Assembly: GCA_902614655.1 (NCBI GenBank)
Contig: CACMLX010000003.1
Span: 19,554-83,553, forward strand
Direction: 5' to 3'
Source of the DNA: an uncultured Pelagibacteraceae bacterium
Lineage (GTDB): Bacteria; Pseudomonadota; Alphaproteobacteria; Pelagibacterales; AG-422-B15
DNA: 64,000 nt
Of this stretch, positions 35,618 through 59,912 are shown one piece after another. The notes beneath the pieces were generated by a model that saw nothing but the letters and a program-made list of their open reading frames with translations, ran no database searches and was not told where the DNA came from. Made by a program: the position numbers and the translations under genes. Each line of letters begins with the position of its first letter. Position 1 is the first letter of the stretch.

Positions 35618-36679
35618 ATGGATCATAATTTAAAAAAAATCCGAGACTCTGTCATTGAGCACACTTTAAAGTTGGACAACGACCAACTTGCACTTTTATT
35701 ATTAATTCAACTTTCTCGTCATCAAAATCTATTTATTCACGAACCGTCAGATTGGGAAGATAGTCCAACAGGTTGGATTACAAAAGATCAAAGACTGCAA
35801 GATGAAGTAATTGCTATTTTGTCTTTTATAATACTTTTTTCATTTACGAATGCATATCATGATGAAAATTTATTTAAAGATCATAGAGCCGAAATTTTAG
35901 CAATGCATCCAGAAGACTTTCTTAATAATTCAATTTATCAGTCACCGTTTGGTCAATTTATTGGCAAAAAAATTACCATTGGTTCACTTTCAACTTATTT
36001 CAATATTCCAAAAGAAAGTATGAGAAGATATTTAAATTCAGTTTTAGAGAGTAATTTAATTAAAAAGGATTCAAAATATGGATATCTTGTGAATTTTGAA
36101 GCATATCAAGCATATATATTCACCAATTCATTAAGTAATATTTATAAATCAGTCATGCGCTCATTAAATGATTTTATAGTGAATTTAGAAGATTATTTTA
36201 AAATTAATTTTAATTTAAAACCTCTATCTTCAATCAATACAAAAAAATTTTCTCAGCCTAAATGGAACAGAGTACGATTACATCTATATCACTTCTGGGT
36301 AAGAATTCTTACTTTAGAAGGAAGCGATCAATCACTTTTACCAGCTGATCGCATAATACTCTCAGCTGCAGTATATTTTAAAAACAGACACGGTATATTA
36401 AAATATAATACCATTGAAGATCTATATGAAAGCGGACATCTTCTTCCAACAAATCTATCTTCAATTTCTGAGGCAGCAAAAATGCCACGTGAAACTGTAA
36501 GACGATCTAGTAAGAAATTAATTGAATTGAAACATCTTGAAAAAAAAGGGAGAAATATTTACCGAGTTAATTACCCAAAACTCAATGGAGAGGTGGATAT
36601 TTTTTTAAAATTTAAAGAATTAACTTTTACAGAAATGATGAACTTTTACTTTAATATTTACGAGGATTTAACGAGTTAA
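35618..36679 (+). CDS. Hypothetical protein with two winged-helix-like segments (possible regulator)
   Basis: 353 aa. Two HTH-like stretches: LSTYFNIPKESMRRYLNSVLESNLIKK and ISEAAKMPRETVRRSSKKLIELKHLEKKG. I recognise no family. The 3' end overlaps the 3' end of the TolC-like gene by 4 nt (convergent). Confidence 0.35.
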   Translation: MDHNLKKIRDSVIEHTLKLDNDQLALLLLIQLSRHQNLFIHEPSDWEDSPTGWITKDQRLQDEVIAILSFIILFSFTNAYHDENLFKDHRAEILAMHPEDFLNNSIYQSPFGQFIGKKITIGSLSTYFNIPKESMRRYLNSVLESNLIKKDSKYGYLVNFEAYQAYIFTNSLSNIYKSVMRSLNDFIVNLEDYFKINFNLKPLSSINTKKFSQPKWNRVRLHLYHFWVRILTLEGSDQSLLPADRIILSAAVYFKNRHGILKYNTIEDLYESGHLLPTNLSSISEAAKMPRETVRRSSKKLIELKHLEKKGRNIYRVNYPKLNGEVDIFLKFKELTFTEMMNFYFNIYEDLTS

Positions 36680-39498: not shown

Positions 39499-39705
39499 GT
39501 ATTTGTTTTTATAAAAACCAAGTTACTGTCATAACGGGTAACTTTATCCCGCGCAAGTAATACCAAACTTTAGTAATTTCAGAGTACACATAACCGCCCA
39601 TTTTGGGTTTTTTCTGCGATCTTGCTACATTTAGCAGCATTACTGCTGTATATAGAAAAGGTATATTTATCAATAAATTACTAAATTTTATTTATAAAAA
39701 ATATC

Positions 39706-46791: not shown

Positions 46792-46802
46792 TAATTACCT
46801 TT

Positions 46803-47522
46803 ATGAACAAAATTGTAACATTTGCGGTAATAGCGTGCTGCATATTATTTCCTTATAATTTGTCAGCAGAAGAATATTCCACCCGTGTCTTAGTAACTGC
46901 AACCCAAGAGGCAACACTCTCAAGTGAACTTGCTGCAAAAGTTGACTCAATTCCAATTGATGAAGGATCTGAATTTAAAGAGTCTGATATTTTAATTAAG
47001 TTTGACTGTTCATTTTTTGAAGAACAAAGAAAAGTTGTTGAAGCACAATTAGAGAGTGCGAGAGTAACTCTAAAGAGCAATCAAGACTTAGCATTAATGA
47101 GATCCATTGGTGAGTATGAAGTTCAGTTATCAGAAATCGATGTAAAGCGTGCAGAAGCTGAATTTCAGATTGCTAAACTCAATACAGATCGATGCATAAT
47201 TAAAGCCCCTTACGATGGCAAAGTATCCAAAGTGTTTGTAAATGAGTTTGAGAGTATTGAAAGGCAGCAGCCATTAGTTGAAATCATTGGTTCAGGCATT
47301 CTTGAGGCAAAATTGATTGTTTCAAGCAAGTGGTTGGCTTGGATCGATGAGGGATATCCCATGAAAATCAGCATTGATGAAAACGGTCTAACATATAGTG
47401 CCAAAATTTATACTATTGGCGTTGATATTGATCCTGTTAGTCAAACAATCGACATAACTGCAAAATTTGATGAAAATTATGATACATTACTGCCAGGTAT
47501 GAGTGGGACAGCAACGTTTTGA
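46803..47522 (+). CDS. Short periplasmic membrane-fusion (HlyD/RND-adaptor-like) protein
   Basis: 239 aa. Signal peptide, lipoyl-like hairpin halves (ATLSSELAAKVDSIPIDEGSEFKESDILIKFD ... IIKAPYDGKVSKVFVNEFESIERQQPLVEI) separated by a coiled coil. Lies 11 nt after the giant gene. Confidence 0.8.
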   Translation: MNKIVTFAVIACCILFPYNLSAEEYSTRVLVTATQEATLSSELAAKVDSIPIDEGSEFKESDILIKFDCSFFEEQRKVVEAQLESARVTLKSNQDLALMRSIGEYEVQLSEIDVKRAEAEFQIAKLNTDRCIIKAPYDGKVSKVFVNEFESIERQQPLVEIIGSGILEAKLIVSSKWLAWIDEGYPMKISIDENGLTYSAKIYTIGVDIDPVSQTIDITAKFDENYDTLLPGMSGTATF

Positions 47523-48856
47523 ATGACAATACTTCAATAAAAATAGCAAGATTAATTACTCTTGAGAAAAAATTTCGGACTGCAGAAAACATATCCGAAC
47601 TCGGATTCGTTTGTGCAAATGAGTTAAGAAGTGTTGTGGATTACAATTTTTTATTTTTTCTTACTAAATCTGCAACAGGTCGACAGAAAGTCCAAACAAT
47701 TTCAGATATTTCAGTTGTTGATAGAACTGCGCCGACAGTAAATTTTGTAGAAAGATTAATAAATAAAAAGAAGGTTGAAACGGGATTCTTTTCAGAAGTT
47801 TCAATTAGTGATTTAAGAGAAGATGATACAAATTTAGACTTACCTGAAAATTTTCCAAATGAGTTAATGGTTGTTCCATTAATTTCAAGAACAAAGGGTG
47901 ATTTAGGTTCTCTAGTTGTTGTACGATCTGTCAAAGTTTCAAATACAGAAAAAGAGCTTCTGCAACACATTGCTGAAACATTCAGTCATGCATTGGATTT
48001 ATTTTTATCTCAAGGATCGATTTTATCCTTTTTTGGTAGAATTTTTTCAGGTTGGCTAAAGTGGTTAATATTATCAGCAATCGCACTTGCAATGTTTATA
48101 CCAATTAATATATCCGCAGTAGCTCCAGTTGAGGTTATTGCTAAAAATCCATCAGTAGTTACATCACCAGTTAATGGTGTAGTGAAAAAAGTATTAGTTA
48201 ACACAAATGAAGCCGTTGATGTTGGCATGGAGCTCATTAAATTAGATGATCTCAATTTTAAATCTCAATACGAAATAAACTTACAAGAATTAGAAGTCGC
48301 TGAAGCAGAATTACTCAGGGCTAAACAATCCTCATTTACAAACGATGAGGCAAAAGCAAAGCTCGTTGAGCTATCAACTGAAGTTGCATTGAAGAAAAAG
48401 CAAGTTGCTTATGCCGAGGAACAATTAAAATATTCTGTCATAAAAGCGGAGGTTTCGGGAGTTGCTGTTGTTGAAGATTTTATTGATTGGCAAGGTCGTC
48501 CTGTAAATATAGGTGAAAAGATATTAACAATTGCCAATTCAAATGATATTGAGTTCTTAATCTACCTACCGACAAAAGACTCACTTTTTATTGAAAAATC
48601 AGCAAGAGTGAAGGTGTTTTTGGACAGCAGCCCACTCAACTCAATTGAAGGAAAAATAATAAGAACATCTTACAAACCTGAATTAACAGCTGAAAATATT
48701 CTTGCTTATAAAATACACGCTAGCCTCGAGGATAATATTGAGCCGCCGCGTATTGGATTACGAGGATCAGCAAAAATTTACGGAGATCGGACATCTCTTT
48801 TTTACTATATCTTCAGAGTTCCAATTAATATCAGCAGACAGTTTATAGGAATATAA
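47519..48856 (+). CDS. Membrane-fusion (HlyD-family) protein with an N-terminal cytoplasmic GAF-like domain
   Basis: 445 aa. About 165 aa cytoplasmic with a GAF-like core LMVVPLISRTKGDLGSLVVVRSVKVSNTEKELLQHIAETFSHAL. One TM (WLKWLILSAIALAMFIPI), then lipoyl (VTSPVNGVVKKVLVNTNEAVDVGMELIKLDD), coiled coil and beta-barrel. The TTG start overlaps the upstream TGA. Confidence 0.75.
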   Translation: MNDNTSIKIARLITLEKKFRTAENISELGFVCANELRSVVDYNFLFFLTKSATGRQKVQTISDISVVDRTAPTVNFVERLINKKKVETGFFSEVSISDLREDDTNLDLPENFPNELMVVPLISRTKGDLGSLVVVRSVKVSNTEKELLQHIAETFSHALDLFLSQGSILSFFGRIFSGWLKWLILSAIALAMFIPINISAVAPVEVIAKNPSVVTSPVNGVVKKVLVNTNEAVDVGMELIKLDDLNFKSQYEINLQELEVAEAELLRAKQSSFTNDEAKAKLVELSTEVALKKKQVAYAEEQLKYSVIKAEVSGVAVVEDFIDWQGRPVNIGEKILTIANSNDIEFLIYLPTKDSLFIEKSARVKVFLDSSPLNSIEGKIIRTSYKPELTAENILAYKIHASLEDNIEPPRIGLRGSAKIYGDRTSLFYYIFRVPINISRQFIGI

Positions 48857-50965
48857 ATGATTGTACCGTCTATCCGACAAGATCTGAAACTCAGTGAGGG
48901 ACCAAAGAAAGAGGACGGTTCAGCGTCGTGGCTTCTTTATGACTCACTAAGAAATAAATACTTTTCAATAAACAAAAAAGCATTTGATCTTCTTAAAAAT
49001 TGGTCAAGTGGAATTGAGACAACAGAATTTATTGAAAAAATTAAAAAAAGCAATCTGTCTATTACACAAGAAGAAATTGAAGAATTTATCAATTTTCTAA
49101 ATCTCAATAATTTAAGTATTAAAAAAACAGGTGATGAAGTTAAATCTTTAGTTGTTCAAAAAGAGAAACTTAATAAGCATTGGCTGTTAAAAATTATTCA
49201 TAATTATTTGTTCTTTAAAATCCCATTATTCAAACCAGGAAATGGTCTTGAAAACAGTTTACCTTTTGCATTGTTTCTTGGATCGCAAACCAGCAGACTC
49301 ATAATCTATACTCTGGGGATCATTGGTATTTTTTTAACAATCCAAAACTATGAAACATTTTTAACAACATTTTCTTATTTCTTTAATGTTAATGGATTGA
49401 TTTTGTTTGGTATAACGATTGTTTTTGTAAAGGCCTTGCACGAACTTGGGCACGCATATGTTGCCACTTATTATAAATGCAAAGTTTCTTCAATTGGTCT
49501 TGCAATGCTGGTTTTTTTCCCCTTCTTGTACACAGATACAACCGATGCTTATAAATTAACTGATCATAGAAAACGCTTACTGATTAATTTTGCAGGCATG
49601 CTGACTGAATTGCATCTTGCCCTGCTTGCTACATTTGTTTGGGCTGTAAGCCCTGAAGGTGTTATAAAAAGTGCCTCATTTTTTATTGCAACTTCAAGCT
49701 GGATATCATCACTTCTTATTAATATTAGTCCGTTTATGAGATTTGACGGATACTATGTGCTCTCAGATTTTCTTAAAGCGGAAAATCTTCAACCGCGCTC
49801 ATTTGCTCTAGGTCGATGGCAGATTAGAGAATGGATCTTTGGATTCAAATTCCAACCACCAGAACAACTCATGAGTCAAAGACGGTGGACTTTTATCATT
49901 TACGCATGGATGACATGGATATATCGCTTCTTCATATTTATTGGAATTGCCTTATTGGTCTATTATTTAACATTTAAAATTCTTGGCATCATTCTGTTCA
50001 TTATTGAGATTGTCTGGTTCATTTTACTACCAATTTGGAGAGAAATTAAACAGTGGTGGGGACTCAGAAGGTACATGCGTTTTAATTGGACTTCTTTGAG
50101 ATCAATTTTCATTTTTTCAGTTTTTTTGGCTGCAATGTTAGTACCATGGCGAAGTTCACTCAGTCTTCCTGCAGTGATTGATCGAGGTGAAGTGGTCGAT
50201 ATATATCCTACAGAAGCCTCTGAGATAAAAGAGATTTTTGTTATCTCAGATCAACAAGTCGAAAAGGGTGACTTATTAATCACAATGATGAGTCCGTCTT
50301 TATCAAATAAAGTTGATAAAGCAATTGAGCGCGTAAAGATGATACAACTAAAACTAGATCGTCGAATTGGATCAGAGGTTGATATGAGTAACCTCATGGT
50401 ATTAGAAAACCAATTAAAAGTAGAATTTGAAATTCTTAAAAGTCTTAAAGAAGAAAATAAAAATCTATCAATTTATGCACCAATGAGTGGGGTAATAAAA
50501 GACCTTAAGTATTTAAATAATGGACAATGGGTGAATATAAAAGAAAAATTATTTTCTATTGTTCAATTCAATGACACTAAAGTTGTTGCATTTATAAGTG
50601 AGAATGACTTGGACAAACTTGAAGGTAATACAAGCGGTTATTTTGTACCAAAAAATAATGAGTTTGATGAATCAGAAGTTGTCTTGGTTTCACAAAATAA
50701 TACATCGACAGAAGAACTTCCTTACTTATCATTAGTATCTACTTTTGGTGGATCAATTGCATCACGCGAAGTTAAGAGAGATGGAAAAGTTGTTTATCGA
50801 CCAGAAGAAGCTTTATACCAATTGAATTTTTCTACAAGTACAGAAGTTGAGACTGTTCAATGGCAAACAGCAGGTAAAGTAAAAATTCAAACTGAAAACT
50901 ATAATATTTTTCAAAATCTATTTAATTTGGTTTCATCAACATTAATTAGAGAAAGTGGATTTTAG
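48857..50965 (+). CDS. Site-2 protease (peptidase M50) fused to a C-terminal HlyD-like periplasmic domain, with an N-terminal PqqD/RRE-like cytoplasmic domain
   Basis: 702 aa. HELGH at nt 49439-49453 and second S2P motif NISPFMRFDG at 49721-49750, both in TM helices. The C-terminal approx 260 aa have lipoyl-like (IYPTEASEIKEIFVISDQQVEKGDLLITM / IYAPMSGVIKDL) and coiled-coil segments. N-terminal WLLYDSLRNKYFSINKKAFDLLKNW...TQEEIEEFINFLNLNNL resembles PqqD/RRE. ATG immediately follows the upstream TAA. Confidence 0.8.
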   Translation: MIVPSIRQDLKLSEGPKKEDGSASWLLYDSLRNKYFSINKKAFDLLKNWSSGIETTEFIEKIKKSNLSITQEEIEEFINFLNLNNLSIKKTGDEVKSLVVQKEKLNKHWLLKIIHNYLFFKIPLFKPGNGLENSLPFALFLGSQTSRLIIYTLGIIGIFLTIQNYETFLTTFSYFFNVNGLILFGITIVFVKALHELGHAYVATYYKCKVSSIGLAMLVFFPFLYTDTTDAYKLTDHRKRLLINFAGMLTELHLALLATFVWAVSPEGVIKSASFFIATSSWISSLLINISPFMRFDGYYVLSDFLKAENLQPRSFALGRWQIREWIFGFKFQPPEQLMSQRRWTFIIYAWMTWIYRFFIFIGIALLVYYLTFKILGIILFIIEIVWFILLPIWREIKQWWGLRRYMRFNWTSLRSIFIFSVFLAAMLVPWRSSLSLPAVIDRGEVVDIYPTEASEIKEIFVISDQQVEKGDLLITMMSPSLSNKVDKAIERVKMIQLKLDRRIGSEVDMSNLMVLENQLKVEFEILKSLKEENKNLSIYAPMSGVIKDLKYLNNGQWVNIKEKLFSIVQFNDTKVVAFISENDLDKLEGNTSGYFVPKNNEFDESEVVLVSQNNTSTEELPYLSLVSTFGGSIASREVKRDGKVVYRPEEALYQLNFSTSTEVETVQWQTAGKVKIQTENYNIFQNLFNLVSSTLIRESGF

Positions 50966-51039
50966 TGGTGCCCCTAGCTGGTTACGCTCCAGCGGCTGAT
51001 CATTACCAATGACCTGCTTTACTATTAAGCGATAGGGGC
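50966..51039 (-). tRNA. tRNA-Thr(GGU)-like gene with a non-canonical elbow (atypical D- and T-loops), encoded CCA
   Basis: Minus strand: GCCCCTA TC GCTT AATAGTA AAGC A GGTCA TTGGTAA TGATC AGCC GCTGG AGCGTAA CCAGC TAGGGGC ACCA. All four stems pair fully (7/4/5/5 bp, one G-U). U8, A14, A21, U33 and G53-C61 are present. The T-loop is AGCGTAA instead of TTCRANY and the D-loop has one G instead of GG. The anticodon is at 51005-51007. Confidence 0.6.
51020..51039. repeat. 20-nt direct repeat copy 1 (5' end of the tRNA-like gene)
   Basis: tactattaagcgataggggc is identical to 56376-56395. Confidence 0.9.
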
Positions 51040-51214
51040 AAAGCATTGATAACAAATAGTAATATCGTTTATACAATGTTGAATTATTTTCTGTGTAGCA
51101 ATAATGTAGCAGTTACACAGACTGCAATTCCTAGCTTTTCTGCAGTATAACACAGTTTTTTCATGATTGGATATGATTTAAGCCATTGATATACATACAT
51201 ACATGAACACCTTA

Positions 51215-51270
51215 CAAAACATATTTAATGCTACTACCTCAAATACTCATTCAGGAAAGTGGATTTTAGT
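51215..51270 (+). pseudogene. Degenerate relic of the 3' end of an M50-HlyD gene (duplicate of 50912-50966)
   Basis: Exact 16-mer gaaagtggattttagt at 50951-50966 and 51255-51270. Upstream, caaaacatatttaat (51215-51229) matches caaaatctatttaat (50912-50926). In the homologous frame the relic reads ...LIQESGF* against ...LIRESGF* in the intact gene. Confidence 0.6.
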
Positions 51271-51886
51271 TTATTTCAAGGCCGCCCTCAGTTTTGAGAA
51301 ACTCAGCAACATTTTCTATACCTTTATTATTCTTCATTTCACAAAAAATATAAGGCATGCCTGATCGGGCAGTTTCAACATCTAATTTCATTTGATCCAA
51401 ATCAACATTTACGTGATTTGCTAAATCGGTTTTATTGATGATTAGTAAATCAGATTTTCTTATTGCTGGCCCACCTTTGCGAGGAATATCACCTCCCATT
51501 CCAACATCAATTACATAGATTGATAAATCTACTAACTCTGGACTAAACGTTGCGGCCAAATTATCTCCACCTGACTCAATTAATAGCAATTGTAAATCAG
51601 GAAATTTTTGTTTCATTTCTTCTACAGCTAAGAGGTTGATCGAAGCATCCTCCCGAATAGCGGTATGAGGGCAACCACCTGTTTCAACGCCTTTAATTCT
51701 CTCAATTGGTAAAACTTGAGCTCTCATTAAATACTCGGCATCTTCTATTGTATAAATATCATTTGATATAACTGCCATTGAAATATTTTTAGATAAATTT
51801 TTGCACAAAGCCTCAGTAAGACTTGTTTTACCTGCACCAACTGGGCCGCCAATACCAATCTTTAAAGGACCTCGAAAATTATTCAC
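51266..51886 (-). CDS. ureG: Urease accessory GTPase UreG
   Basis: 206 aa. P-loop [20 protein letters not shown] and ESGGDNL motifs. Confidence 0.97.
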
Positions 51887-52542
51887 GTGACGTAAATTCT
51901 AGATTTAAGATTTTCGTGTTTCATACTGTAAATATCCGCATAAAACGTAGAACTGCGTAAATCGTCTAAGTTATAGTCTCTCATCGTATTATGAAAACTT
52001 TTCATCATTCCAAGAAATGAAACCATACAATCTTGACCATCTTTCTGACTTAAAGGTATATGTTTAACGCACATATTAATTAAGTTTGAGATGAATGATT
52101 GAATATAAAAATCAACCAAATCATCAAAGGCAATATGAAATTTAATACCTGCTTGAGCAATACAGACTGGGAAAGTGGTCTCATTATCTATTGTATAGCC
52201 CCAACTTTCTGACATAATTTTTCTGAATGCATCTCCCATTTTAAGTGTTTCAAGTTGACGTTCCTTGGATGCGCAGTTTGCAAGTACTAAATCATTTATA
52301 TCAATTCCGCCATAGACAGCCTTGATAAAGATATACTCATTTCTGCATGTTCCTTCATAGAGAATACTCTTGATAAATTCTAATACGTCATTTTTATTTT
52401 TGATAAGCTTATCATCAATTATACCCTCAAGACCATGCGAATATGCGTATGAACCAATAGGAAATGAAGACGAAAACCAAAGATGTAAAATTTGATGAGA
52501 TTTTAAATCTAATAAGTTTTTACTTTTAATGTTTGTGACCAT
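51883..52542 (-). CDS. ureF: Urease accessory protein UreF
   Basis: Track ORF reaches 52590, but ATG 52542 (MVTNIKS...) limits the overlap with ureE to 17 nt. The [21 protein letters not shown] motif is typical of UreF. Confidence 0.85.
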
Positions 52543-52969
52543 GCGTTCTTCCCATACCGTAAGCCCCTCCTTCAGGATTAAATTGTTCAATCACAGATTT
52601 TGTCTGCCCCCCAAGTCTTCTCACCATATTCTCAATTATATGGTCACTTTGTATTAGAATTCTTGTAGCCTCAATCTGACAGGGGATATGTCTATTCCCA
52701 ATATGCCATATTAATTTATTTAAATCTTCTGACTTGATCTCAATTAAGTTTTCTTTTTTTGATTTTATAGTAATTAATTTTCCACTCTCAAGTTTGAACG
52801 CTTGATTACTCACGACTGATCTCATCTCTTCAAGATCAACAAGAAATTCATGACCTTTGTCAGAAACTAATTTTTTGCGTCGCATGAATCTCTCCTCATA
52901 AGATAGCGAAATTGTATCAACCTCTTCAGAGGAATCACAGTTACTTAATATTGAATTACAAATTTCCAT
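52526..52969 (-). CDS. ureE: Urease accessory metallochaperone UreE
   Basis: 147 aa. WHIGNRHIP motif and His-containing tail GRTHGHKH. Position between ureC and ureF. Confidence 0.85.
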   Translation of the reverse strand: MEICNSILSNCDSSEEVDTISLSYEERFMRRKKLVSDKGHEFLVDLEEMRSVVSNQAFKLESGKLITIKSKKENLIEIKSEDLNKLIWHIGNRHIPCQIEATRILIQSDHIIENMVRRLGGQTKSVIEQFNPEGGAYGMGRTHGHKH

Positions 52970-52972
52970 AAG

Positions 52973-54679
52973 TCAGTACATAAAATATCTTTGTGCCATC
53001 GGCAGTTCTTCCGCTGGTTCACATGTTATAATTTCACCATTTGCTCTAACCTCATATGTTTCAGGATTTACATCTATAGTTGGACAAACATCATTTAAAA
53101 CCATATCTTTTTTTGAAATTGACCTTGTATTACTTACCGGCAGCATACTTTTTTGTATATTGAGATGATTAAGGCTGCCTGCCTCCAGAGAACTCTTGCT
53201 GACAAAAGTTACCGATGAGTTTTCAAGCGATCTTCCATAACTTCCAAACATTGGGCGGGTATATACAGGTTGGGGAGTTGGAATCGATGCGTTTGGATCG
53301 CCCATTTGAGCGCAGGCAATACTCCCACCCATTATTACAATCTCAGGCTTAACACCAAAGAAAGCTGGATCCCAGATAACGATATCGGCTCTTTTATTTT
53401 TTTCGAGACTGCCAACATAAGAAGAGATTCCATGAGCAATTGATGGGTTTATTGTATATTTTGCAAGGTAACGTTTAACTCTTAAATTATCATTATCACC
53501 TTGCTCTTCAGATAGTCTTCCTCGTTGCACTTTCATTTTATGAGCTGTTTGCCATGTTCTAATAATAACCTCACCAACGCGTCCCATAGCTTGACTATCA
53601 GATGCGATGATTGAGAAAGCACCCATATCGTGCAGTATGTCCTCAGCAGCCATTGTCTCTCTGCGTATTCTACTCTCAGCAAATGCTACGTCTTCAGGTA
53701 TTGATTTATCAAGGTGATGGCAAACCATCAGCATATCTAAGTGCTCTTCAACAGTGTTAACAGTAAATGGTCGTGTTGGATTAGTTGAGGATGGCAAAAC
53801 ATACGGTTCACCACAAATTTTTATTATATCAGGCGCGTGTCCACCACCAGCACCTTCAGTATGAAATGTATGAATGGTTCTTTTATTAATTGCATTGATT
53901 GTATTTTCCACAAAGCCACTTTCATTGAGTGTATCAGTATGTATCATGACCTGAACGTCGAATTTATCAGCAACATTTAAACAATTATCAATTGCACCAG
54001 GAGTAGAGCCCCAGTCCTCGTGAAGTTTGAGAGCAGCTGCTCCACCAAGAACTTGTTCCTCTAAACCAGAAGGCATCGAAGAATTTCCTTTGCCTGCATA
54101 AGCTAAATTCATCGAGAAAGCATCAGATGATTGAAGCATCCTGCCTATGTGCCATGGCCCAGGTGTGCAAGTAGTTGCTAATGTTCCATGTGCTGGTCCA
54201 GTACCTCCACCCAGCATCGTCGTAATGCCAGAATGTAAGGCGTCATCAATTTGCTGAGGACATATGAAATGTATATGACTATCAAAGCCGCCCGCCGTTA
54301 CAATTTTACCTTCACCTGCAATAACTTCAGTACCTGGACCAATTATAATATCCACACCAGGCTGTGTATCAGGGTTACCAGCTTTTCCAATATGGTCAAT
54401 ATTTCCGTTCTTTAGTCCAATATCTGCTTTAAATATCCCTGTGACATCTAGTATTAGAGCATTAGTAATAACTGTATCTACTGCGCCATCACTTCTTGAA
54501 ACCTGAGATTGTCCCATGCCATCGCGAATAACTTTGCCACCACCAAACTTGACTTCCTCACCATAGACTGTGAGGTCTTTTTCAACCTCTATGAAAAGTT
54601 CAGTATCAGCTAACCTTACTTTATCCCCTGTTGTGGGGCCATACATAGCTGCATAAGATTCTCTTGGAATTTTTTTCAT
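52973..54679 (-). CDS. ureC: Urease alpha subunit
   Basis: 568 aa. Contains [27 protein letters not shown] and GRVGEVI. Confidence 0.97.
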
Positions 54680-54984
54680 TTAATTTTTCCCATGACTTTT
54701 TTATTAAATCCAAATAACTTTTTTAGTCCCTGTATTTCAATAAGTTCAACATCTCTTGTTTGCCCTGGTTCAAACCTTACTGCGGTTCCAGATGAAATGT
54801 TTAGTCTCATACCTATGGCTTTTTTTCTATCGAATTCAAGACTTTCATTTGCTTCGCCAAAGTGATAGTGGCTGCCGACTTGAATTGGCCGATCACCAGT
54901 ATTGGAGACTTTCATTGTCAAACTCACTAAATCTTTATTTAAAATTATATCACTGTCACTTGTAATTATTTCTCCTGGAATCAT
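54676..54984 (-). CDS. ureB: Urease beta subunit
   Basis: 102 aa. Contains MIPGEI...[19 protein letters not shown]. Confidence 0.95.
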
Positions 54985-54991
54985 ATAATTC

Positions 54992-55294
54992 TTACCTTAT
55001 GGGTTTATGCACCGTGACTAACTTTGTTCCATCCGGAAAAGTTGCTTCTGTCTGCACTTCGGCAATCATTTCAGCAACTCCGTCCATACAGTCATCCTTT
55101 TTTAATACATGTGCTGCACTTTCCATTAGTTCAGCTACAGATTTGCCGTCCCTTGCACCTTCAACAACATAATCAGAAATAATTGATACGGCTTCAGGGT
55201 AATTTAGTTTTATACCACGATCTAACCTCTTTCGAGCGACTATTGCAGCTATGCTGACCATCATTTTATCAATTTCTCTTGGAGAAAGCTTCAT
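54992..55294 (-). CDS. ureA: Urease gamma subunit
   Basis: ATG 55294 ([17 protein letters not shown]...) gives the canonical 100 aa. It overlaps the ureD stop as ATGA. The track's longer start at 55306 is unlikely. Confidence 0.95.
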
Positions 55295-56088
55295 GCAGCA
55301 CCCCACATGTAAGGAATTTTATCATTCATCATGATTGATACGATATTTTTTGTAAATTTTTTTAAATAATAGTTATTGGATGAAATACTCCTTATTACTA
55401 TCTTACCATCCCATTCTGAAATACCAGTAGTTACACTTTTTTCATCATGTATATTATCCTTCAATACAGTATAAAATTTATTCATCTCTGAACCGAGTAT
55501 TATTATTGTGTTAACTGCAATATTATCATTAAGCATAAATTTATTTTCCCGCATTCTTTTTATATTATCTTCAAAGCCATTGATTTCAAGGTGAGCAATT
55601 TTATTATCATTAAATATTTTCCATCGATCATAGTAGTAACCTTTTTCAATCGTTTCATTCATTGCTGATCTTCCATAAACAACTGTTTCACAAAAAAATA
55701 AATTTGAATTATTTAAAAGATGGATATCAATTTGACGTCTTAGGTTACAATTATCAAAGAGGATTGTTTCATTTGGTATCCAAAAAAGAGCACTGTTATC
55801 AATGTTGATGGTATATTTAAGTTCAGCCGCGTCTCCATATCCACTATATACCTTCTCAGCAGCCTGACTTGTAGTGAGCATATGTGTATTGTGTAAGTCT
55901 ATATTGGTATTAAACTTATCTCCACTCGTTACACCTCCAGAAGTATTGATTAATACAAGTTGAGACAAATTAGAGTAGGATTGGGGCAGTAAGGCTTTAA
56001 GACACCCTTGCTGATACAATTTTTTAATATCATTATTTATAAACTCTACATCAATTGTACCTAAAGATTTCTGAAGATTTACTTTCAT
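55291..56088 (-). CDS. ureD: Urease accessory protein UreD
   Basis: Position and size fit UreD. The track start at 56115 is a TTG, and the first ATG is 56088 ([16 protein letters not shown]...). The start is uncertain between the two. Confidence 0.8.
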
Positions 56089-56288
56089 GAAATTATCATA
56101 GTGTTTTAATTTCAAGTTGACAAATAATTGTCATTTATTTTTATCATTAAAATTAAAGATACTATTTTGTAATATAAAAATTATATTTAAATTTTTTTTT
56201 GAGGATGTCATTTTGGCAAGTGTAAAGATTTGTATCCTTAATTTTTTTAAGAAAATATTTAGCAGTTAAAAAAATGAAAGGACGAATA

Positions 56289-56384
56289 ATGATCAAGAAA
56301 ATTTTAGTTGTTATGTCATTTTTCTTTTTTAGTATTACTGCGTATGCAGATACTATAAAAGTTGGCATATTACACTACTATTAA
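56289..56384 (+). pseudogene. urtA: 5' remnant of a urea ABC transporter binding-protein gene (urtA-like), truncated after 29 codons
   Basis: Manual translation gives MIKKILVVMSFFFFSITAYADTIKVGILHYY*. A signal peptide is followed by DTIKVGILH, matching my recollection of the conserved UrtA mature N-terminus (IKVGILHSLSGTM). The match ends exactly where the 20-nt repeat begins (56376). Divergent from ureD. Confidence 0.5.
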
Positions 56385-56395
56385 GCGATAGGGGC
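56376..56395. repeat. 20-nt direct repeat copy 2 (isolated copy of the tRNA-like 5' end)
   Basis: tactattaagcgataggggc. Flanks on both sides are unrelated to those of copy 1. Confidence 0.9.
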
Positions 56396-56414
56396 TAAAT
56401 GTGTTTTAGTTTAG

Positions 56415-58208
56415 CTATAGGTCACCTAATGCTATTCCCTCGCGACGTGGATCAGATCCACCCTCCAAATTATCTCCAATATAAATTGTATTTAATCCTG
56501 AAAAATATCTTTTTATTGTTGTATCATATCCCATAGCTGACAAACTTTCTTCAAGTCTTAAAGCATCCTGTGACTCTTCAATTTCGTATTTACCCCATCG
56601 ATTAATGGCATGTGGGAAAGAAACTGACTGTTGTACATTCATATCCCACTCTATAAGAGAAATTAAGGAGTTTGTTACAAACCCAATAATGTTACTACCT
56701 CCTGGGGATCCGGTTATGTATATTGGCTTTCCATTCTGAAGTACGATGGTAGGCGACATTGAGGACCTAGGACGCTTGCCTGGCTCTAATCTGTTTGAAA
56801 CTAATTTTCCATCAATTTTGTGCTTAAATGAAAAATCAGTAAGTTGATTGTTTAGCAAGAAACCACTTTTAGTGAATAGTCTGGAACCAAACGCGTTTTC
56901 AATTGAAGACGTCATCGATAGAGCATTTCCATATTTATCATATATTGAAATATGTGTTGTTGAATTTAGTTCTAGAGAATTATCATCACTGTAATCATGT
57001 GCAACACTGTCTGACGGATTACCAGGCTCAATTTTTTCTGTTCTTGAGCCCACTTTAATTTTATTTGATCTTAATCTTAAGTATTCATCATCAAGTAAGC
57101 CTGCAACTGGTACATTAACAAAATCACTATCAGCAAGGTATCTATCTCGATCAGCAAAAGCTAGACGACTTGCATCTCCGATCAATTGCCATGATAATGG
57201 GTTTTCATATCCAAGAGATTTTAAATCAAATTGCTCAACCAATTTTAAAGTCTGACCAACAGCTACTCCACCCGAGGATGGAGGCCCCATGCCACAAACT
57301 TCGTAATTTTTATACATTACACATGCAGGCTTTCTCTCGATAACTCTATAGTTTTTAAGATCAGTTTTACTTAGAAATCCAGGATTAATCTTATAATCTT
57401 GAACTGTACTAATAATATCATTTGCAATATTTCCGACATAGAAATCGTCAAGACCTTCATGCGCAATAGTTTGTAGTGTTTGAGCATAACTATTGTTTAC
57501 AACGATCTGTTTATGCAAGAGACCTTGATCGTTTGGAAAAAAATAATTTTTAGTCATTTCTACTTTTTTAAGTCTATCTTCATCACGTTTGATTGATGCC
57601 TCTAATTTTTTTGAAACAGAAAAACCATTTTTTGCAAGTTCGATAGCATCATTAAACAAAATTGACCAATCCATTTGTCCCCACTTATTATGTGCCTCTT
57701 TCATTAACGCAGGTGTTCCAGGTGTCCCAACTGATAGGCCCCCAATTACTGCATCAAAGAACTTCTTAGGATCACCACCAGTATTTTGAAATTGTGTTGT
57801 TTTTGACTTTTGTGGAGCTGTTTCTCTTCCATCTAAAGTGGTTACCATTTTAGTTTTGTTATCAAACCAAACTAGAAAACTGCCACCACCAAGACCAGAT
57901 GACTCGGGTTCAACGAGTCCCAAAACTGCTTGAGCTGCAATCATAGCATCTGCTGCCGTACCACCTAAACTTAAAATCTCAGCTCCTGCTTTTGATGCAT
58001 ATGCATTTGCTGTCACAATCATCCATTCCTTGCCAATAACAGGTTTACCATTTTTTTTAGCCTCAAGTGATTTAGTTATAAATTTAGAATCAAGTTCTAT
58101 TGAAGTGTCATCAAAAATTTCAGGATCAATTAATTCTGAGGAATCTTGAGAATATATATTTTGAGTAAGTAAAATTAGTAAAAAAAATGCAGAGAAAATA
58201 TTCTTCAT
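56415..58208 (-). CDS. ggt: Gamma-glutamyltranspeptidase
   Basis: 597 aa. Signal peptide, autoprocessing/nucleophile site NSTTHISI and C-terminal GGSDPRREG. Confidence 0.95.
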   Translation of the reverse strand: MKNIFSAFFLLILLTQNIYSQDSSELIDPEIFDDTSIELDSKFITKSLEAKKNGKPVIGKEWMIVTANAYASKAGAEILSLGGTAADAMIAAQAVLGLVEPESSGLGGGSFLVWFDNKTKMVTTLDGRETAPQKSKTTQFQNTGGDPKKFFDAVIGGLSVGTPGTPALMKEAHNKWGQMDWSILFNDAIELAKNGFSVSKKLEASIKRDEDRLKKVEMTKNYFFPNDQGLLHKQIVVNNSYAQTLQTIAHEGLDDFYVGNIANDIISTVQDYKINPGFLSKTDLKNYRVIERKPACVMYKNYEVCGMGPPSSGGVAVGQTLKLVEQFDLKSLGYENPLSWQLIGDASRLAFADRDRYLADSDFVNVPVAGLLDDEYLRLRSNKIKVGSRTEKIEPGNPSDSVAHDYSDDNSLELNSTTHISIYDKYGNALSMTSSIENAFGSRLFTKSGFLLNNQLTDFSFKHKIDGKLVSNRLEPGKRPRSSMSPTIVLQNGKPIYITGSPGGSNIIGFVTNSLISLIEWDMNVQQSVSFPHAINRWGKYEIEESQDALRLEESLSAMGYDTTIKRYFSGLNTIYIGDNLEGGSDPRREGIALGDL

Positions 58209-58227
58209 TTTATTATATTTTTCAAAA

Positions 58228-58989
58228 TTAATTTTTTACTCCATAGCCTTTTGAAATCACTATTGCTACGCCAATAATACAGGTTAGTAAAAAAGCAACA
58301 AGTGATATGACACTTATTAAAATACTTATATCCGATGAACCATAAAACGACCAACGCATGCCATTGATAAGATAAACAACTGGATTAAAATATGAAACTT
58401 TTTGCCAAAACTCAGGCAGCATTTCAATCGTGTAAAGACTTCCGCCTAAAAATACTAATGGGGTAATAATTATCAAAGGTACAACTTGAAGTTGTTCAAA
58501 ATTATTACTCAACAATCCAATAAGAAAGCCAAATAAACTAAATGTGAGGCACGTCAGAACAAGTAAGAAGAACATTAAAAAAGGATATTGAATTTTTAGT
58601 TCAACGAAGAAACTAGCAGTGAGCAAAATGATTATACCAACAATAAGTGATTTAGATGCACTGGCCCCAACAAATCCAATAATGATTTCAAGTGAAGAAA
58701 TTGGTGCAGCTAATACCTCATAGATTGAACCTGTAAACTTTGGGAAAAATATTCCAAAAGCTGAGTTTGATATACTTTGTGTTAAAAGCGTTAGCATTAG
58801 CAAGCCAGGTACAATAAAGGAACCATAGCTCACCCCGTCTAATTCTGGAATCATGCCCCCAATAACAGACCCAAAAACAATAAAATATAAAGACGTTGAG
58901 ATAACGGGCGAGAGAATACTTTGACCAATTGTCCTTCGCATTCTATCCATTTCGTGAAGATAGATAGCTCTGATAGCATAAAAATTCAT
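58228..58989 (-). CDS. ABC-2 type exporter permease
   Basis: 253 aa. 6 TM ABC-2 pattern. 1-nt overlap with the ATPase gene. Confidence 0.85.
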   Translation of the reverse strand: MNFYAIRAIYLHEMDRMRRTIGQSILSPVISTSLYFIVFGSVIGGMIPELDGVSYGSFIVPGLLMLTLLTQSISNSAFGIFFPKFTGSIYEVLAAPISSLEIIIGFVGASASKSLIVGIIILLTASFFVELKIQYPFLMFFLLVLTCLTFSLFGFLIGLLSNNFEQLQVVPLIIITPLVFLGGSLYTIEMLPEFWQKVSYFNPVVYLINGMRWSFYGSSDISILISVISLVAFLLTCIIGVAIVISKGYGVKN

Positions 58990-59912
58990 TAATTTTCCCT
59001 CACTAATTCGACAAAAATATTTTCTAATGAGCTTTGTTCTGTTTTTATATCCTTCAATCTCAATCCAGTTTCTTTCATATCTTGTAAAAGTGATGTAATT
59101 CCAGTTTGTTTACTTTTTGAGTCATAATTATAACTAAGAGATAATCCATCGTTCAAAATAGTAAGATTATAATTTTTCAAATTTAAAGGCAGCGACTCAA
59201 CAGCATCATGTAAATCAATTAAAAGTGTTTTTTGTCCCATGCTTTGTACTAGGTCTGAGGTATTATCAACAACCAAAAGTTCACCTTTGTTTACAACAGC
59301 AACTCGGTCAGCAATCGCTTCAGCTTCTTCTATGTAGTGGGTAGTGAGAATGACGGTAACACCGCTTTTTCTTAAGTCTTTAATCGTTTCCCACATTTCT
59401 TGTCTTAATTCAACATCCACACCTGCGCTTGGTTCATCTAGAAATAAAACCGAGGGCTCATGAGAAAGCGCTTTAGCAATTAACACTCTCCTTTTCATAC
59501 CTCCAGATAACTCATTAATTCTTGAGTTTCTTTTATCCCACAAACTTAAATCTTTTAAAATTTTTTCAATTAGAGACGGGTTTGGAGCCTTGCCATATAA
59601 CCCACGAGTATAAGAAACATTATTAAAGACATATTCAAACTGCTCCAAAGATAATTCTTGCGGAACTAAACCTATTTGTGATCTAGTTTTTCGGTAATCT
59701 TTTATTATATCAAAATCATCTACAGTTACTGAACCTGATGTTGGAATAACGATTCCACAAATAATACTAATCAACGTTGTTTTTCCAGCGCCATTTGGTC
59801 CAAGTAATGCAATAATTTCATTTTTTTTTATGTCCAGGCTAATATTCTTAAGTGCCTGAAAATCATTGTCATAAATTTTTGTTAAGTTTTTTATCGAGAC
59901 AATATTTTGCAT
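58989..59912 (-). CDS. ABC-2 type exporter ATPase
   Basis: 307 aa. Walker A GPNGAGKTT, signature LSGGMKRRVLIA, Walker B LFLDEPSAG. Confidence 0.95.
   Translation of the reverse strand: MQNIVSIKNLTKIYDNDFQALKNISLDIKKNEIIALLGPNGAGKTTLISIICGIVIPTSGSVTVDDFDIIKDYRKTRSQIGLVPQELSLEQFEYVFNNVSYTRGLYGKAPNPSLIEKILKDLSLWDKRNSRINELSGGMKRRVLIAKALSHEPSVLFLDEPSAGVDVELRQEMWETIKDLRKSGVTVILTTHYIEEAEAIADRVAVVNKGELLVVDNTSDLVQSMGQKTLLIDLHDAVESLPLNLKNYNLTILNDGLSLSYNYDSKSKQTGITSLLQDMKETGLRLKDIKTEQSSLENIFVELVREN

What the first reader, a model, noticed from the sequence alone, without database searches (positions are those of the whole stretch)
51020..56395. Exact 20-nt direct repeat of the tRNA-like 5' end brackets the entire urease cluster
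tactattaagcgataggggc occurs at 51020-51039, where it forms nt 1-20 of the tRNA-like gene. It occurs again at 56376-56395, where both flanks are unrelated. An exact 20-mer with a G/C-rich core in this AT-rich sequence is unlikely to arise by chance. The 5.3 kb between the copies holds ureG-F-E-C-B-A-D and the urtA stub. Direct repeats derived from a tRNA gene are the classic attL/attR footprint of site-specific integration. Two features are unusual here. The duplicated part is the 5' end of the tRNA rather than the 3' end, and no integrase lies in the bracketed segment. So the urease cluster may be a decayed integrative island, or it may be mobilisable or deletable by recombination between these repeats. 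I scanned by eye and may have missed further copies.
Basis: seen in the sequence. Interest (0 to 1): 0.65.

Follow-up and report, generated by a model that had tools for sequence, protein, structure and literature searches.

The report
Urease island scar at SAR11 tRNA-Thr
The 20-base repeat is real: it is the cut-down left scar of a mobile-element insertion into a threonine tRNA gene of the ocean bacterium SAR11, an insertion that delivered the urease genes and later lost its urea transporter; this is a clear example of a kind of island already described.

Summary
Confirmed. TACTATTAAGCGATAGGGGC occurs exactly twice, at 51020-51039 and 56376-56395, and never in shuffled sequence. It is the reverse complement of nt 1-20 of a real minus-strand tRNA-Thr(GGU) at 51039..50969. 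This tRNA is identical in about 30 SAR11 genomes.

Relatives carry empty sites: ABC2-permease-tRNA or ggt-tRNA, followed by the M50/HlyD gene. One relative (AG-918-D16) holds an intact 11.6-kb island: a 38-nt tRNA 5' half, an arm, urtEDCBA, ureDABCEFG, an arm, then the tRNA.

The same 38 nt is the attP core of free, roughly 7-kb circular elements that encode an arm-binding tyrosine integrase and a primase. Window 51040-51222 is 92% identical to the P arm of one such element.

So the urease cluster is cargo of a tycheposon-like or satellite-derived island inserted upstream of the tRNA. The 20-mer is a 38-nt attL scar truncated by a 6.2-kb illegitimate join between tRNA nt 20 and urtA codon 29. 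That join removed urtA-E and the integrase-side arm. The join also appears in independent metagenomes.

The island carries no integrase and now lacks the probable crossover region, so it is most likely immobile. It is a new member of a known kind, of moderate interest.

The parts
50966..51039 (-). tRNA-Thr(GGU), 71 nt plus encoded CCA. This is the integration target (attB) and is now part of attR.
   Evidence: Rfam tRNA at 50.9 bits. Cloverleaf minimum-free-energy fold. Identical in about 30 SAR11 genomes, with compensatory changes in L012 and L031.
51002..51039 (-). tRNA nt 1-38. This is the block shared by attB, attP, attL and attR, and it ends just after the anticodon loop.
   Evidence: Six genome loci and five metagenome loci carry exactly nt 1-38 as a detached fragment. 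The attP of L060, L074-76 and L078-79 holds the same 38 nt.
51020..51039 (+).
51040..51222 (-). P arm of attR. This element-derived DNA lies directly upstream of the tRNA and presumably supplies its promoter.
   Evidence: Window 50999-51222 (tRNA nt 1-41 plus this arm) aligns over 224 nt at 92% identity (E 3e-91) to the attP region of free element L078. It is 75-78% identical to L074 and L060.
51094..51111 (-). Tandem arm-type repeat, TGCTACA-N4-TGCTACA on the tRNA strand. Putative binding site for the integrase's Arm-DNA-binding domain.
   Evidence: Read. The same paired repeat sits at the same distance in the P and P' arms of the elements and of other islands, and its sequence differs between arm types (TGTGTCCTA, TGCTACA, TGTTACA).
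51255..51270 (+). Exact 16-nt copy of the end of the M50/HlyD gene (50951-50966). It is the core of a diverged relic of about 55 nt lying between ureG and the P arm.
   Evidence: family D2; alignment score 56 against a maximum of 37 in 200 shuffles. The relic is absent from element L078. Its origin is unexplained.
51266..52969 (-). ureG (51266-51886), ureF (51883-52590) and ureE (52526-52969).
   Evidence: Pfam cobW/UreG, UreF, and UreE_N/UreE_C.
52973..55306 (-). ureC (52973-54679), ureB (54676-54984) and ureA (54992-55306).
   Evidence: Pfam Urease_alpha plus Amidohydro_1, Urease_beta, and Urease_gamma.
55291..56115 (-). ureD.
   Evidence: Pfam UreD, 1.8e-33.
56116..56288 (.). Divergent ureD/urtA intergenic region. 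It is retained intact.
   Evidence: Colinear with AG-918-D16.
56289..56375 (+). urtA stub: the first 29 codons (signal peptide through ...VGILH). It then runs into the 20-mer and a stop codon.
   Evidence: The intact homologue in AG-918-D16 is UrtA at 531 bits. The N-terminus matches Peripla_BP_5.
56376..56395 (+). Right copy of the 20-mer: a truncated attL, the displaced original tRNA 5' end (nt 1-20 of what is a 38-nt scar in relatives).
   Evidence: The junction analysis shows tRNA nt 20 joined to urtA codon 29, with only 1 nt (the A at 56376) shared for certain and weak ATAG..A similarity. Independent metagenome unitigs cross the join.
56396..58208 (-). Native upstream flank: a 19-nt spacer (56396-56414) and ggt (gamma-glutamyltranspeptidase, 56415-58208).
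   Evidence: Pfam G_glu_transpept. The same 30 nt precede an intact tRNA in L039, and L037 differs from it at a single position. This flank is 99.4-100% identical in nucleotides to L039.
48857..50965 (+). Native downstream flank: a peptidase M50/HlyD-like gene convergent on the tRNA.
   Evidence: It lies next to the tRNA in both empty and occupied sites.

Best explanation
The window comes from a SAR11 (Pelagibacteraceae) genome. Its tRNA-Thr(GGU) gene is an integration hot spot for a family of roughly 7-kb circular elements. These elements encode a P4-type tyrosine integrase with an arm-binding domain and an AEP/DUF5906 primase-helicase. Their attP has three parts: a P arm, an exact copy of tRNA nt 1-38, and a P' arm that lies directly upstream of int.

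Recombination within this 38-nt block places incoming DNA upstream of the tRNA. The crossover is inferred to lie in or near the anticodon loop. The element supplies a new 5' half and upstream region to the tRNA, and the old 5' half is pushed to the far end as a 38-nt scar (attL). Repeated integration followed by loss of int and rep genes leaves cargo-only islands at this site.

One such island carries urtEDCBA-ureDABCEFG. It is 11.6 kb and intact in SAG AG-918-D16.

In this window's lineage, a single illegitimate join connected tRNA nt 20 of the scar to urtA codon 29. The join was either an internal 6.2-kb deletion or an import anchored by homology on the tRNA/M50 side. It removed scar nt 21-38, the P' arm and urtA-E. 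What remains is ggt, the 20-nt scar, urtA', ureDABCEFG, the P arm and the tRNA.

Shown here: the repeat, the tRNA, empty sites, the intact island, attP identity, arm homology, and the presence of the junction in nature. Inferred: the position of the crossover, integrase action in trans, the order of events, and the present immobility of the island.
For: - Repeat and tRNA.
- The 20-mer occurs only at tRNA-Thr or island borders in 40 SAR11 genome loci.
- Empty sites: 13 loci have ABC2perm-tRNA-M50HlyD. L037 and L039 have ggt-tRNA-M50HlyD. L006 has ggt-tRNA with different downstream genes. L039's ggt flank is 99.4-100% identical to the window.
- Intact island: in L001+L023, frag38 lies at 485 and the tRNA at 12066. 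The window is colinear with it at 95% from 56376 to 49317. UrtA-E were confirmed.
- A 38-nt scar in the ggt context exists in L054.
- Other cargo sits between the same 38-nt scar and the tRNA. Examples are a T5orf172/DUF4116 cassette, an Eco57I-type R-M enzyme, and a ResIII helicase with a CHAT protein.
- Tandem arrays occur: in L038 a scar lies directly after ureG.
- Integrase next to the 38-mer: L055/P0001 matches Phage_integrase at 8.9e-21 and Arm-DNA-bind_3 at 2.2e-13, and its neighbour is a DUF5906/VapE-like primase.
- The elements appear as self-repeating contigs with periods of 6,943 and 7,575 bp and no host flanks.
- Exact nt 1-38 lie 171-215 nt upstream of int in three integrase subtypes.
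- Window 50999-51222 (tRNA nt 1-41 plus the P arm 51040-51222) is 92% identical to the attP region of L078.
- The junction shows only 1-nt microhomology, and unitigs from independent runs cross it.
- Precedent: pelagiphage integrases that use and restore the 5' end of SAR11 tRNAs (bioRxiv 10.1101/410191); partial tRNA repeats inside SAR11 islands (PMC11796062).
Against: - No integrase was found in the window or in any of the 40 genome loci. That screen used only three seed sequences, so it is not exhaustive.
- No element was found that carries both int and the ure/urt genes, so mobilisation of the urease cargo by this integrase is inferred, not shown.
- All integrase-bearing elements were found as free forms. 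None was seen integrated with SAR11 flanks in the data I could reach.
- The two arms of the AG-918-D16 urease island are of different subtypes: TGTGTCCTA on the left and TGCTRCA on the right. The island is therefore composite, and its history involves at least two integrations plus deletions.
- The relic of the M50/HlyD 3' end beside ureG is not explained by the model.
- IMG/VR and INPHARED hold no copy of the 38-mer.
Confidence: 0.85

Rival explanations
1. One-step import rather than in-situ deletion. A ggt-tRNA empty-site genome (L039-like) took up linear DNA from a urease-island donor. The DNA recombined homologously on the tRNA/M50HlyD side and illegitimately at tRNA nt 20 and urtA codon 29 (homology-facilitated illegitimate recombination). 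On this reading the 20-mer is the recipient's own tRNA 5' end, and no integrase ever acted in this lineage. This is a variant of the main explanation: the island still originated by integration elsewhere.
For: The ggt flank is 99.4-100% identical to the empty-site genome L039, whereas the M50HlyD flank is only about 94% identical to every relative. The junction has only 1-nt microhomology, which is typical of illegitimate joins.
Against: A full 38-nt scar in the ggt context exists in nature (L054), so the precursor needed for an in-situ deletion is available. The two routes leave identical products, and the flank identities are also explained by ordinary homologous recombination, which is frequent in SAR11.
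Confidence: 0.35
2. The two 20-mers are still an active recombination pair. Under this reading the urease cluster can be excised, mobilised or deleted by recombination between them.
For: Empty-site alleles with exactly the predicted single-copy join (ggt-tRNA-M50HlyD) exist (L037, L039). They co-occur with the occupied allele in one metagenome: a branch at 56376 in run X6 continues into the full tRNA.
Against: The left copy lacks nt 21-38 and the whole P' arm with its arm-type repeats, so the integrase would have no complete attL. Twenty base pairs is at or below the usual minimum for RecA-dependent recombination. L039 resembles the window closely on only one flank, so it is not a recent deletion derivative. 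The empty alleles are equally well explained as ancestral.
Confidence: 0.07
3. The repeat is a chance match, a dispersed repeat, or an assembly or MDA chimera.
For: Many SAR11 references are single-cell (MDA) assemblies. MDA chimeras join at short microhomology, and this junction has such microhomology.
Against: None of 100 shuffles gave a match. All 40 genome hits are the tRNA or island borders. Unitigs from three runs in two independent studies cross both sides of the 20-mer with 0-2 differences.
Confidence: 0.01
4. The island is a decayed pelagiphage prophage (HTVC019P type) rather than a small integrative element or satellite.
For: HTVC019P-type pelagiphages integrate at the 5' end of SAR11 tRNA genes and carry partial 5' tRNA copies (bioRxiv 10.1101/410191).
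Against: No phage record or IMG/VR contig holds the 38-mer, the 20-mer or nt 19-38. The reported pelagiphage targets are tRNA-Cys, tRNA-Leu and tRNA-Arg, not tRNA-Thr. The attP found here sits on roughly 7-kb int-primase elements with no structural genes. The closest phage integrases are at most 29% identical.
Confidence: 0.03

Closest known systems
Tycheposons of Prochlorococcus (Hackl et al., bioRxiv 10.1101/2020.12.28.424599; later published in Cell 2023, from my own knowledge)
   Same: Both involve tyrosine-recombinase elements with primase or helicase genes that insert at tRNA genes bordering genomic islands of a streamlined ocean bacterium. Both are flanked by a full and a partial tRNA, form tandem arrays, leave degraded remnants, and carry nutrient-acquisition or defence cargo.
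   Different: The host is SAR11, not Prochlorococcus. The target is tRNA-Thr(GGU), and the duplicated part is the 5' half. In the window no hallmark gene (int or rep) remains. No element was found with both hallmark genes and the urease cargo. The relationship of these integrases to tycheposon integrases was not tested.
HTVC019P-type pelagiphage integration (Zhao et al., bioRxiv 10.1101/410191)
   Same: The host clade is the same. Tyrosine integrases have attP cores that overlap the 5' end or middle of a tRNA, and the incoming DNA supplies the 5' part of the tRNA.
   Different: Those are 35-40-kb podoviruses that target tRNA-Cys, tRNA-Leu or tRNA-Arg. Here the elements are about 7 kb, have no structural genes, and target tRNA-Thr.
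VEIME marine phage satellites and Pelagibacter integrase-primase elements (PMC9618062; PMC11876622)
   Same: These are small (about 7 kb) tyrosine-integrase plus primase elements. They are recovered as concatemers or circles from marine samples, are associated with Pelagibacter, and lie near tRNAs.
   Different: I could not test whether the P0001-P0016 elements are packaged in capsids or belong to the published VEIME modules. Those papers do not report the tRNA-Thr 5'-half attP or the urease island, as far as my full-text searches of them show.
SAR11 flexible genomic islands with partial tRNA repeats (PMC11796062)
   Same: That study found that seven islands of one SAR11 genomospecies abut a tRNA, four contain a partial repeat of that tRNA, and canonical mobile elements are almost absent (one integrase).
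   Different: That paper's text names no urease cargo (0 mentions of 'urease'), and its supplements could not be read here. The donor element and attP identified here supply the mechanism that it left open.
CIMEs (cis-mobilisable elements) and accretion-mobilisation in the Streptococcus ICESt family (from my own knowledge)
   Same: Cargo segments are flanked by att sites but lack their own recombinase. They arise by decay of integrated elements and accumulate in tandem at one tRNA-type site.
   Different: No conjugation is involved. In the window the left att site is truncated, so it does not qualify even as a CIME. AG-918-D16 does qualify by sequence.

Membership tests
tRNA-anchored integrative genomic island (attL/attR) | Direct repeats derived from the target tRNA flank the segment. 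| tested here: met
   20 nt in the window, 38 nt in relatives.
tRNA-anchored integrative genomic island (attL/attR) | Relatives have unoccupied sites with a single intact tRNA joining the same flanks. | tested here: met
   L037 and L039 have ggt-tRNA-M50HlyD, and 13 loci have ABC2perm-tRNA-M50HlyD. In one search L039's 30-nt upstream context matches the window exactly, and L037 differs at one position.
tRNA-anchored integrative genomic island (attL/attR) | A site-specific recombinase is encoded within the island. | tested here: not met
   no tyrosine or serine recombinase was found in the window or the 40 genome loci (three-seed phmmer screen). Pfam assignments for the seven ure ORFs between the repeats are all urease functions.
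tRNA-anchored integrative genomic island (attL/attR) | The island ends are homologous to the attP of a free element whose core equals the repeat. | tested here: met
   attP holds exact nt 1-38. Window 50999-51222 (core plus P arm) is 92% identical to the L078 attP region. The P' arm has been deleted from the window but is present in relatives.
Tycheposon | Hallmark tyrosine or large serine recombinase plus replication genes, on the same element as the cargo. | tested here: not met
   The window and all urease-bearing loci lack int and rep genes. The hallmark genes occur only on separate roughly 7-kb elements.
Tycheposon | Integration at a tRNA bordering a variable island, with partial-tRNA flanks and tandem arrays. 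| tested here: met
Tycheposon | The integrase belongs to the published tycheposon recombinase clades. | not tested
CIME (cis-mobilisable element) | Both flanking att sites are complete, so a cognate integrase supplied in trans can excise the segment. | tested here: not met
   The left site keeps only nt 1-20 and has no P' arm. The condition is met by sequence in AG-918-D16.
Phage satellite / VEIME (applies to the roughly 7-kb donor elements only) | A small integrase plus primase element found as a circle or concatemer. | tested here: met
   L060 repeats itself with a period of 6,943 bp and L066 with 7,575 bp. Genes are int plus AEP-TOTE/DUF5906.
Phage satellite / VEIME (applies to the roughly 7-kb donor elements only) | Packaged in helper-phage capsids. 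| not testable with these tools
   This needs virion-fraction long reads or experiments.
Prophage (pelagiphage) | Phage structural or replication genes in the island, or an attP match in a phage genome. | tested here: not met
   urease genes only; no phage or IMG/VR hit.

The most novel reading that the evidence does not exclude
In SAR11, urea-nitrogen acquisition genes (urt and ure) travel as integrase-less cargo cassettes bounded by complete att arms. These cassettes would be moved in trans by abundant roughly 7-kb integrase-primase satellites that recognise the 5' half of tRNA-Thr(GGU). If so, an accretion-mobilisation system would be a main route of flexible-gene exchange in the ocean's most abundant heterotroph, whose islands contain almost no mobility genes. 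The window would then record the moment at which such a cassette became fixed through loss of one att site.
Probability: 0.3. Interest if true: 0.65.

Novelty: new member of a known kind. Interest (0 to 1): 0.45.

Why it matters
SAR11 has a very large flexible gene pool but almost no recognisable mobile elements in its islands, so how genes enter those islands is an open question. This locus gives a concrete, sequence-level case with four components:
- a defined attB, tRNA-Thr nt 1-38;
- the matching attP on abundant free integrase-primase elements;
- intact, tandem and decayed islands at the same site;
- an ecologically important cargo, urease and the urea transporter.

It extends the tycheposon logic from Prochlorococcus to SAR11 nitrogen acquisition. 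It also shows how a mobile cassette becomes a fixed chromosomal trait.

The loss of urtA-E with retention of ureDABCEFG suggests that this lineage uses urease on urea made inside the cell. Purine or xanthine breakdown, as proposed for urease-bearing SAR11 in PMC12636525, is a candidate source. This last point is inference and was not tested here.

Tried and rejected
- ARAGORN on the window found no tRNA. Rfam and comparative data overrule it.
- The 38-mer, the 20-mer and nt 19-38 were scanned against IMG/VR, and the whole tRNA against INPHARED. None gave a hit, so no phage source was found.
- The arm-repeat pattern TGTGTCCTANNNGTGTCCTA gave 12 hits in IMG/VR. These are unrelated phages with different GC content and no extended motif. 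The count is close to my rough chance estimate, so I dropped them.
- A phmmer screen with XerD, gamma-delta resolvase and lambda Int seeds found no recombinase in the 40 genome loci or the window. The integrase appeared only after the metagenome scan for the scar/P' junction.
- The look-up of encoding contigs on the window's ggt protein found nothing on record.
- Look-ups for five integrase variants returned only free elements, none integrated next to SAR11 genes.
- I looked for a 3'-half tRNA repeat, and for nt 21-38, elsewhere in the window. There are none.
- NCBIfam scans of 20 other window genes for purine- or urea-related functions found ordinary metabolic genes and nothing bearing on the island.
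- The supplements of PMC11796062 are not held, so I could not check whether its GI list includes tRNA-Thr.

Full report
**1. The observation**

The 20-mer TACTATTAAGCGATAGGGGC occurs exactly at 51020-51039 and 56376-56395. No further copy exists at up to three mismatches, and no match appeared in 100 shuffles.

ARAGORN finds no tRNA in the window. Rfam, however, scores 51039..50969 on the minus strand as a tRNA at 50.9 bits. The RNA folds as a cloverleaf with z = -3.07. It has anticodon GGU (Thr), and CCA is encoded.

The 20-mer is the reverse complement of tRNA nt 1-20. Between the copies lie ureG, F, E, C, B, A and D, all on the minus strand. Next comes the divergent intergenic region, then the first 29 codons of urtA on the plus strand.

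**2. Organism and status of the tRNA**

An exact scan of 185,579 species genomes returned 40 loci, all from Pelagibacteraceae or Pelagibacterales. In about 30 of them the 71 nt plus CCA are identical to the window. L012 and L031 carry compensatory double changes in the T stem and the anticodon stem.

This is therefore the genuine SAR11 tRNA-Thr(GGU). It has an unusual T-loop (AGCGUAA) and D-loop (AAUAGUA).

**3. Site states in relatives**

- Thirteen loci have ABC-ATPase, then ABC2-permease, then the tRNA, then M50/HlyD. The permease stop codon abuts the tRNA.
- L037 and L039 have ABC2-permease, ggt, tRNA and M50/HlyD. L039 has exactly the same 30 nt upstream of the tRNA that precede the right-hand 20-mer in the window, and L037 differs at one position. 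L006 also has ggt-tRNA, followed by different downstream genes. These are empty sites.
- L039's ggt flank is 99.4-100% identical to the window in nucleotides. The M50/HlyD flank is about 94% identical to all relatives.
- L008, L023 and L035 have ureG followed by the tRNA, with the same intergenic sequence as the window.
- Six loci hold a detached tRNA fragment. In every case it is nt 1-38, ending just after the anticodon loop.

**4. The intact island**

L001 and L023 are consecutive blocks of one contig from SAG AG-918-D16. Their order is: ABC2-permease; the 38-nt fragment at 485; a conserved arm; urtE, D, C, B and A; ureDABCEFG; an arm; the full tRNA at 12066; and M50/HlyD.

NCBIfam identifies the transporter genes. 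UrtA, B, D and E score above the curated cut-offs, and UrtC scores just below. The island spans 11,581 bp.

The window is colinear with this contig from 56376 to 49317 at 95% identity. Relative to it, the window lacks 6,222 bp. The missing segment comprises fragment nt 21-38, the arm, urtE-B and urtA beyond codon 29.

At the join, only one base is shared for certain, and there is weak ATAG..A similarity. This is an illegitimate join, not a site-specific one. The repeat is 20 nt long only because of this event.

A 38-nt scar in the ggt context exists in metagenome contig L054.

**5. The junction is real**

Unitigs from metagenome runs X1, X2 and X4 cross urtA'|20-mer|ggt flank with 0-2 differences. 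These runs come from two different studies. In run X6 the same position branches into the full tRNA.

**6. What makes the scars**

Downstream of every 38-nt fragment lies an arm, conserved over about 160-200 nt in most loci and truncated in L018. It contains a motif of the form TCCCGTGAATAATTGG followed by a tandem 7-9-mer. The same motif recurs about 55 nt upstream of the full tRNA. The 7-9-mer sequence differs between arm types (TGTGTCCTA, TGCTACA, TGTTACA). This is the pattern expected of arm-type integrase sites.

A metagenome scan for the fragment/arm junction found contig L055. There the 38-mer is flanked by both arms. A DUF5906/VapE-like primase-helicase lies upstream. A 400-aa tyrosine integrase begins 171 nt downstream. 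The integrase matches Phage_integrase at 8.9e-21 and Arm-DNA-bind_3 at 2.2e-13.

This integrase belongs to a family, P0001-P0016, with 44-100% identity. The family is found on contigs of about 7 kb that repeat themselves and carry no host genes. L060 has a period of 6,943 bp and L066 a period of 7,575 bp. These contigs are free circular or concatemeric elements.

In three integrase subtypes (L060, L074-76, L078-79), exact tRNA nt 1-38 lie 171-215 nt upstream of int. A more distant member, L072, carries a whole tRNA-Thr(GGT) gene at that position instead.

Window 50999-51222, comprising the tRNA core and the P arm at 51040-51222, aligns over 224 nt at 92% identity (E 3e-91) with the attP region of L078. 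The window therefore retains a bona fide attR.

**7. Other cargo and tandem arrays**

Several kinds of cargo lie between a 38-nt scar and the tRNA in other genomes:
- a T5orf172 plus DUF4116 cassette (L025, L030);
- an Eco57I/MmeI-type restriction-modification enzyme (L013);
- a 9-10-kb block with a ResIII helicase, a CHAT protein and a sigma-like protein (L038/L036, L053, L056, L057).

In AG-337-G05 a scar lies directly after ureG (L038), and another island follows it. Islands therefore accumulate in tandem at this site.

None of these islands encodes a recombinase.

**8. Mechanism**

Integration within the 38-nt block puts incoming DNA upstream of the tRNA. The incoming DNA provides a new 5' half and upstream region for the tRNA, and the old 5' half is displaced.

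I infer that strand exchange occurs in or near the anticodon loop. The reasons are that the identity block ends there, and that elements normally carry the tRNA segment running from the crossover to the gene end.

The window's left scar lacks that region and lacks the P' arm. The urease segment is therefore most likely fixed in place. Twenty base pairs of homology make RecA-mediated deletion unlikely, though not impossible.

Two routes to the present structure cannot be separated with these data. One is an in-situ 6.2-kb deletion. The other is a one-step import anchored by homology on the tRNA/M50HlyD side.

**9. Comparison with what is known**

- Pelagiphages of the HTVC019P type integrate at the 5' end of SAR11 tRNA-Cys and tRNA-Leu genes and carry partial 5' tRNA copies (bioRxiv 10.1101/410191).
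- SAR11 islands abutting tRNAs, with internal partial tRNA repeats and almost no integrases, have been reported (PMC11796062).
- Tycheposons of Prochlorococcus show the same logic, with nutrient cargo and tandem arrays.
- Integrase-primase satellites and tycheposon-like regions have been reported in Pelagibacter (PMC9618062 and PMC11876622).
- Urease in some SAR11 genera has been tied to xanthine degradation (PMC12636525). That link would explain why urease can be kept without the urea transporter. This is inference.

None of the papers I could search names the tRNA-Thr 5'-half attP or the urease island at it.

**10. Verdict**

The feature is a new, well-resolved member of a known kind of system. 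Three questions remain open: whether the urease cassette itself was ever moved by these integrases, where the crossover lies, and where the M50/HlyD-end relic beside ureG came from.

Noticed in passing
window 50969-51039 (-): The SAR11 tRNA-Thr(GGU) has a non-canonical T-loop (AGCGUAA in place of UUCGAAU: A54, G55, U58) and a D-loop with a single G (AAUAGUA). ARAGORN therefore misses it. The sequence is nevertheless identical across about 30 SAR11 genomes and shows compensatory stem changes in two others. The elbow contacts (G18-psi55 and T54-A58) would have to be formed differently.
   Followed up: partly
window 51210-51270 and 50910-50966: A diverged copy of about 55 nt of the 3' end of the M50/HlyD gene lies between the ureG stop and the P arm. 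Its core is an exact 16-mer, GAAAGTGGATTTTAGT, at 51255-51270 and 50951-50966. It is conserved in the other ureG-tRNA loci, weaker in L038, and absent from the free element L078. No model I considered explains its origin.
   Followed up: partly
window 54241-54526 (+): There is an Rfam hit to 5_ureB_sRNA (102 bits), the Helicobacter antisense RNA. It lies antisense to the 5' part of ureC. It most likely reflects conservation of the urease alpha-subunit coding sequence rather than a SAR11 sRNA.
   Followed up: no
window 56415-59912; L004, L015, L039 and others: The ABC-ATPase/ABC2-permease pair upstream of the tRNA exists as two alleles only about 75% identical in nucleotides. One allele has ggt and one does not. 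The window's block is 99-100% identical to L039, while the other side of the tRNA is about 94% identical to every relative. This suggests a replacement-type flexible region and a recombination mosaic.
   Followed up: partly
L006, L019, L036 (downstream of the tRNA); window 36676-50965: In some SAR11 genomes the tRNA is followed not by the M50/HlyD, HlyD, HlyD and 2,361-aa giant-protein cluster but by unrelated genes of 439 aa and 199 aa. The 3' side of this tRNA is therefore also variable. In the window, a 940-aa TolC-like protein precedes the giant protein.
   Followed up: no
L072 5116-5187 and 12389-12460: A more distant member of the integrase-primase element family (integrase 44% identical) carries a complete, canonical tRNA-Thr(GGT) gene directly upstream of int, instead of a 38-nt half.
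   Followed up: partly
L066-L071 (integrase P0009, 60% identical): These roughly 7.6-kb elements have no match to the tRNA-Thr 38-mer. Upstream of int they carry the sequence ...CCCATTGGTAAT..., which resembles an anticodon loop with GGT. Their target is undetermined.
   Followed up: no
L025 and L030 (islands of 3.6 and 2.7 kb): These small cargo-only cassettes at the same att site encode a T5orf172/MUG113 (GIY-YIG-like) domain protein and a DUF4116 protein. Other islands at the site hold a type IIG R-M enzyme, or a ResIII helicase with a CHAT-domain protein. The site appears to act as a defence-island hot spot as well.
   Followed up: partly
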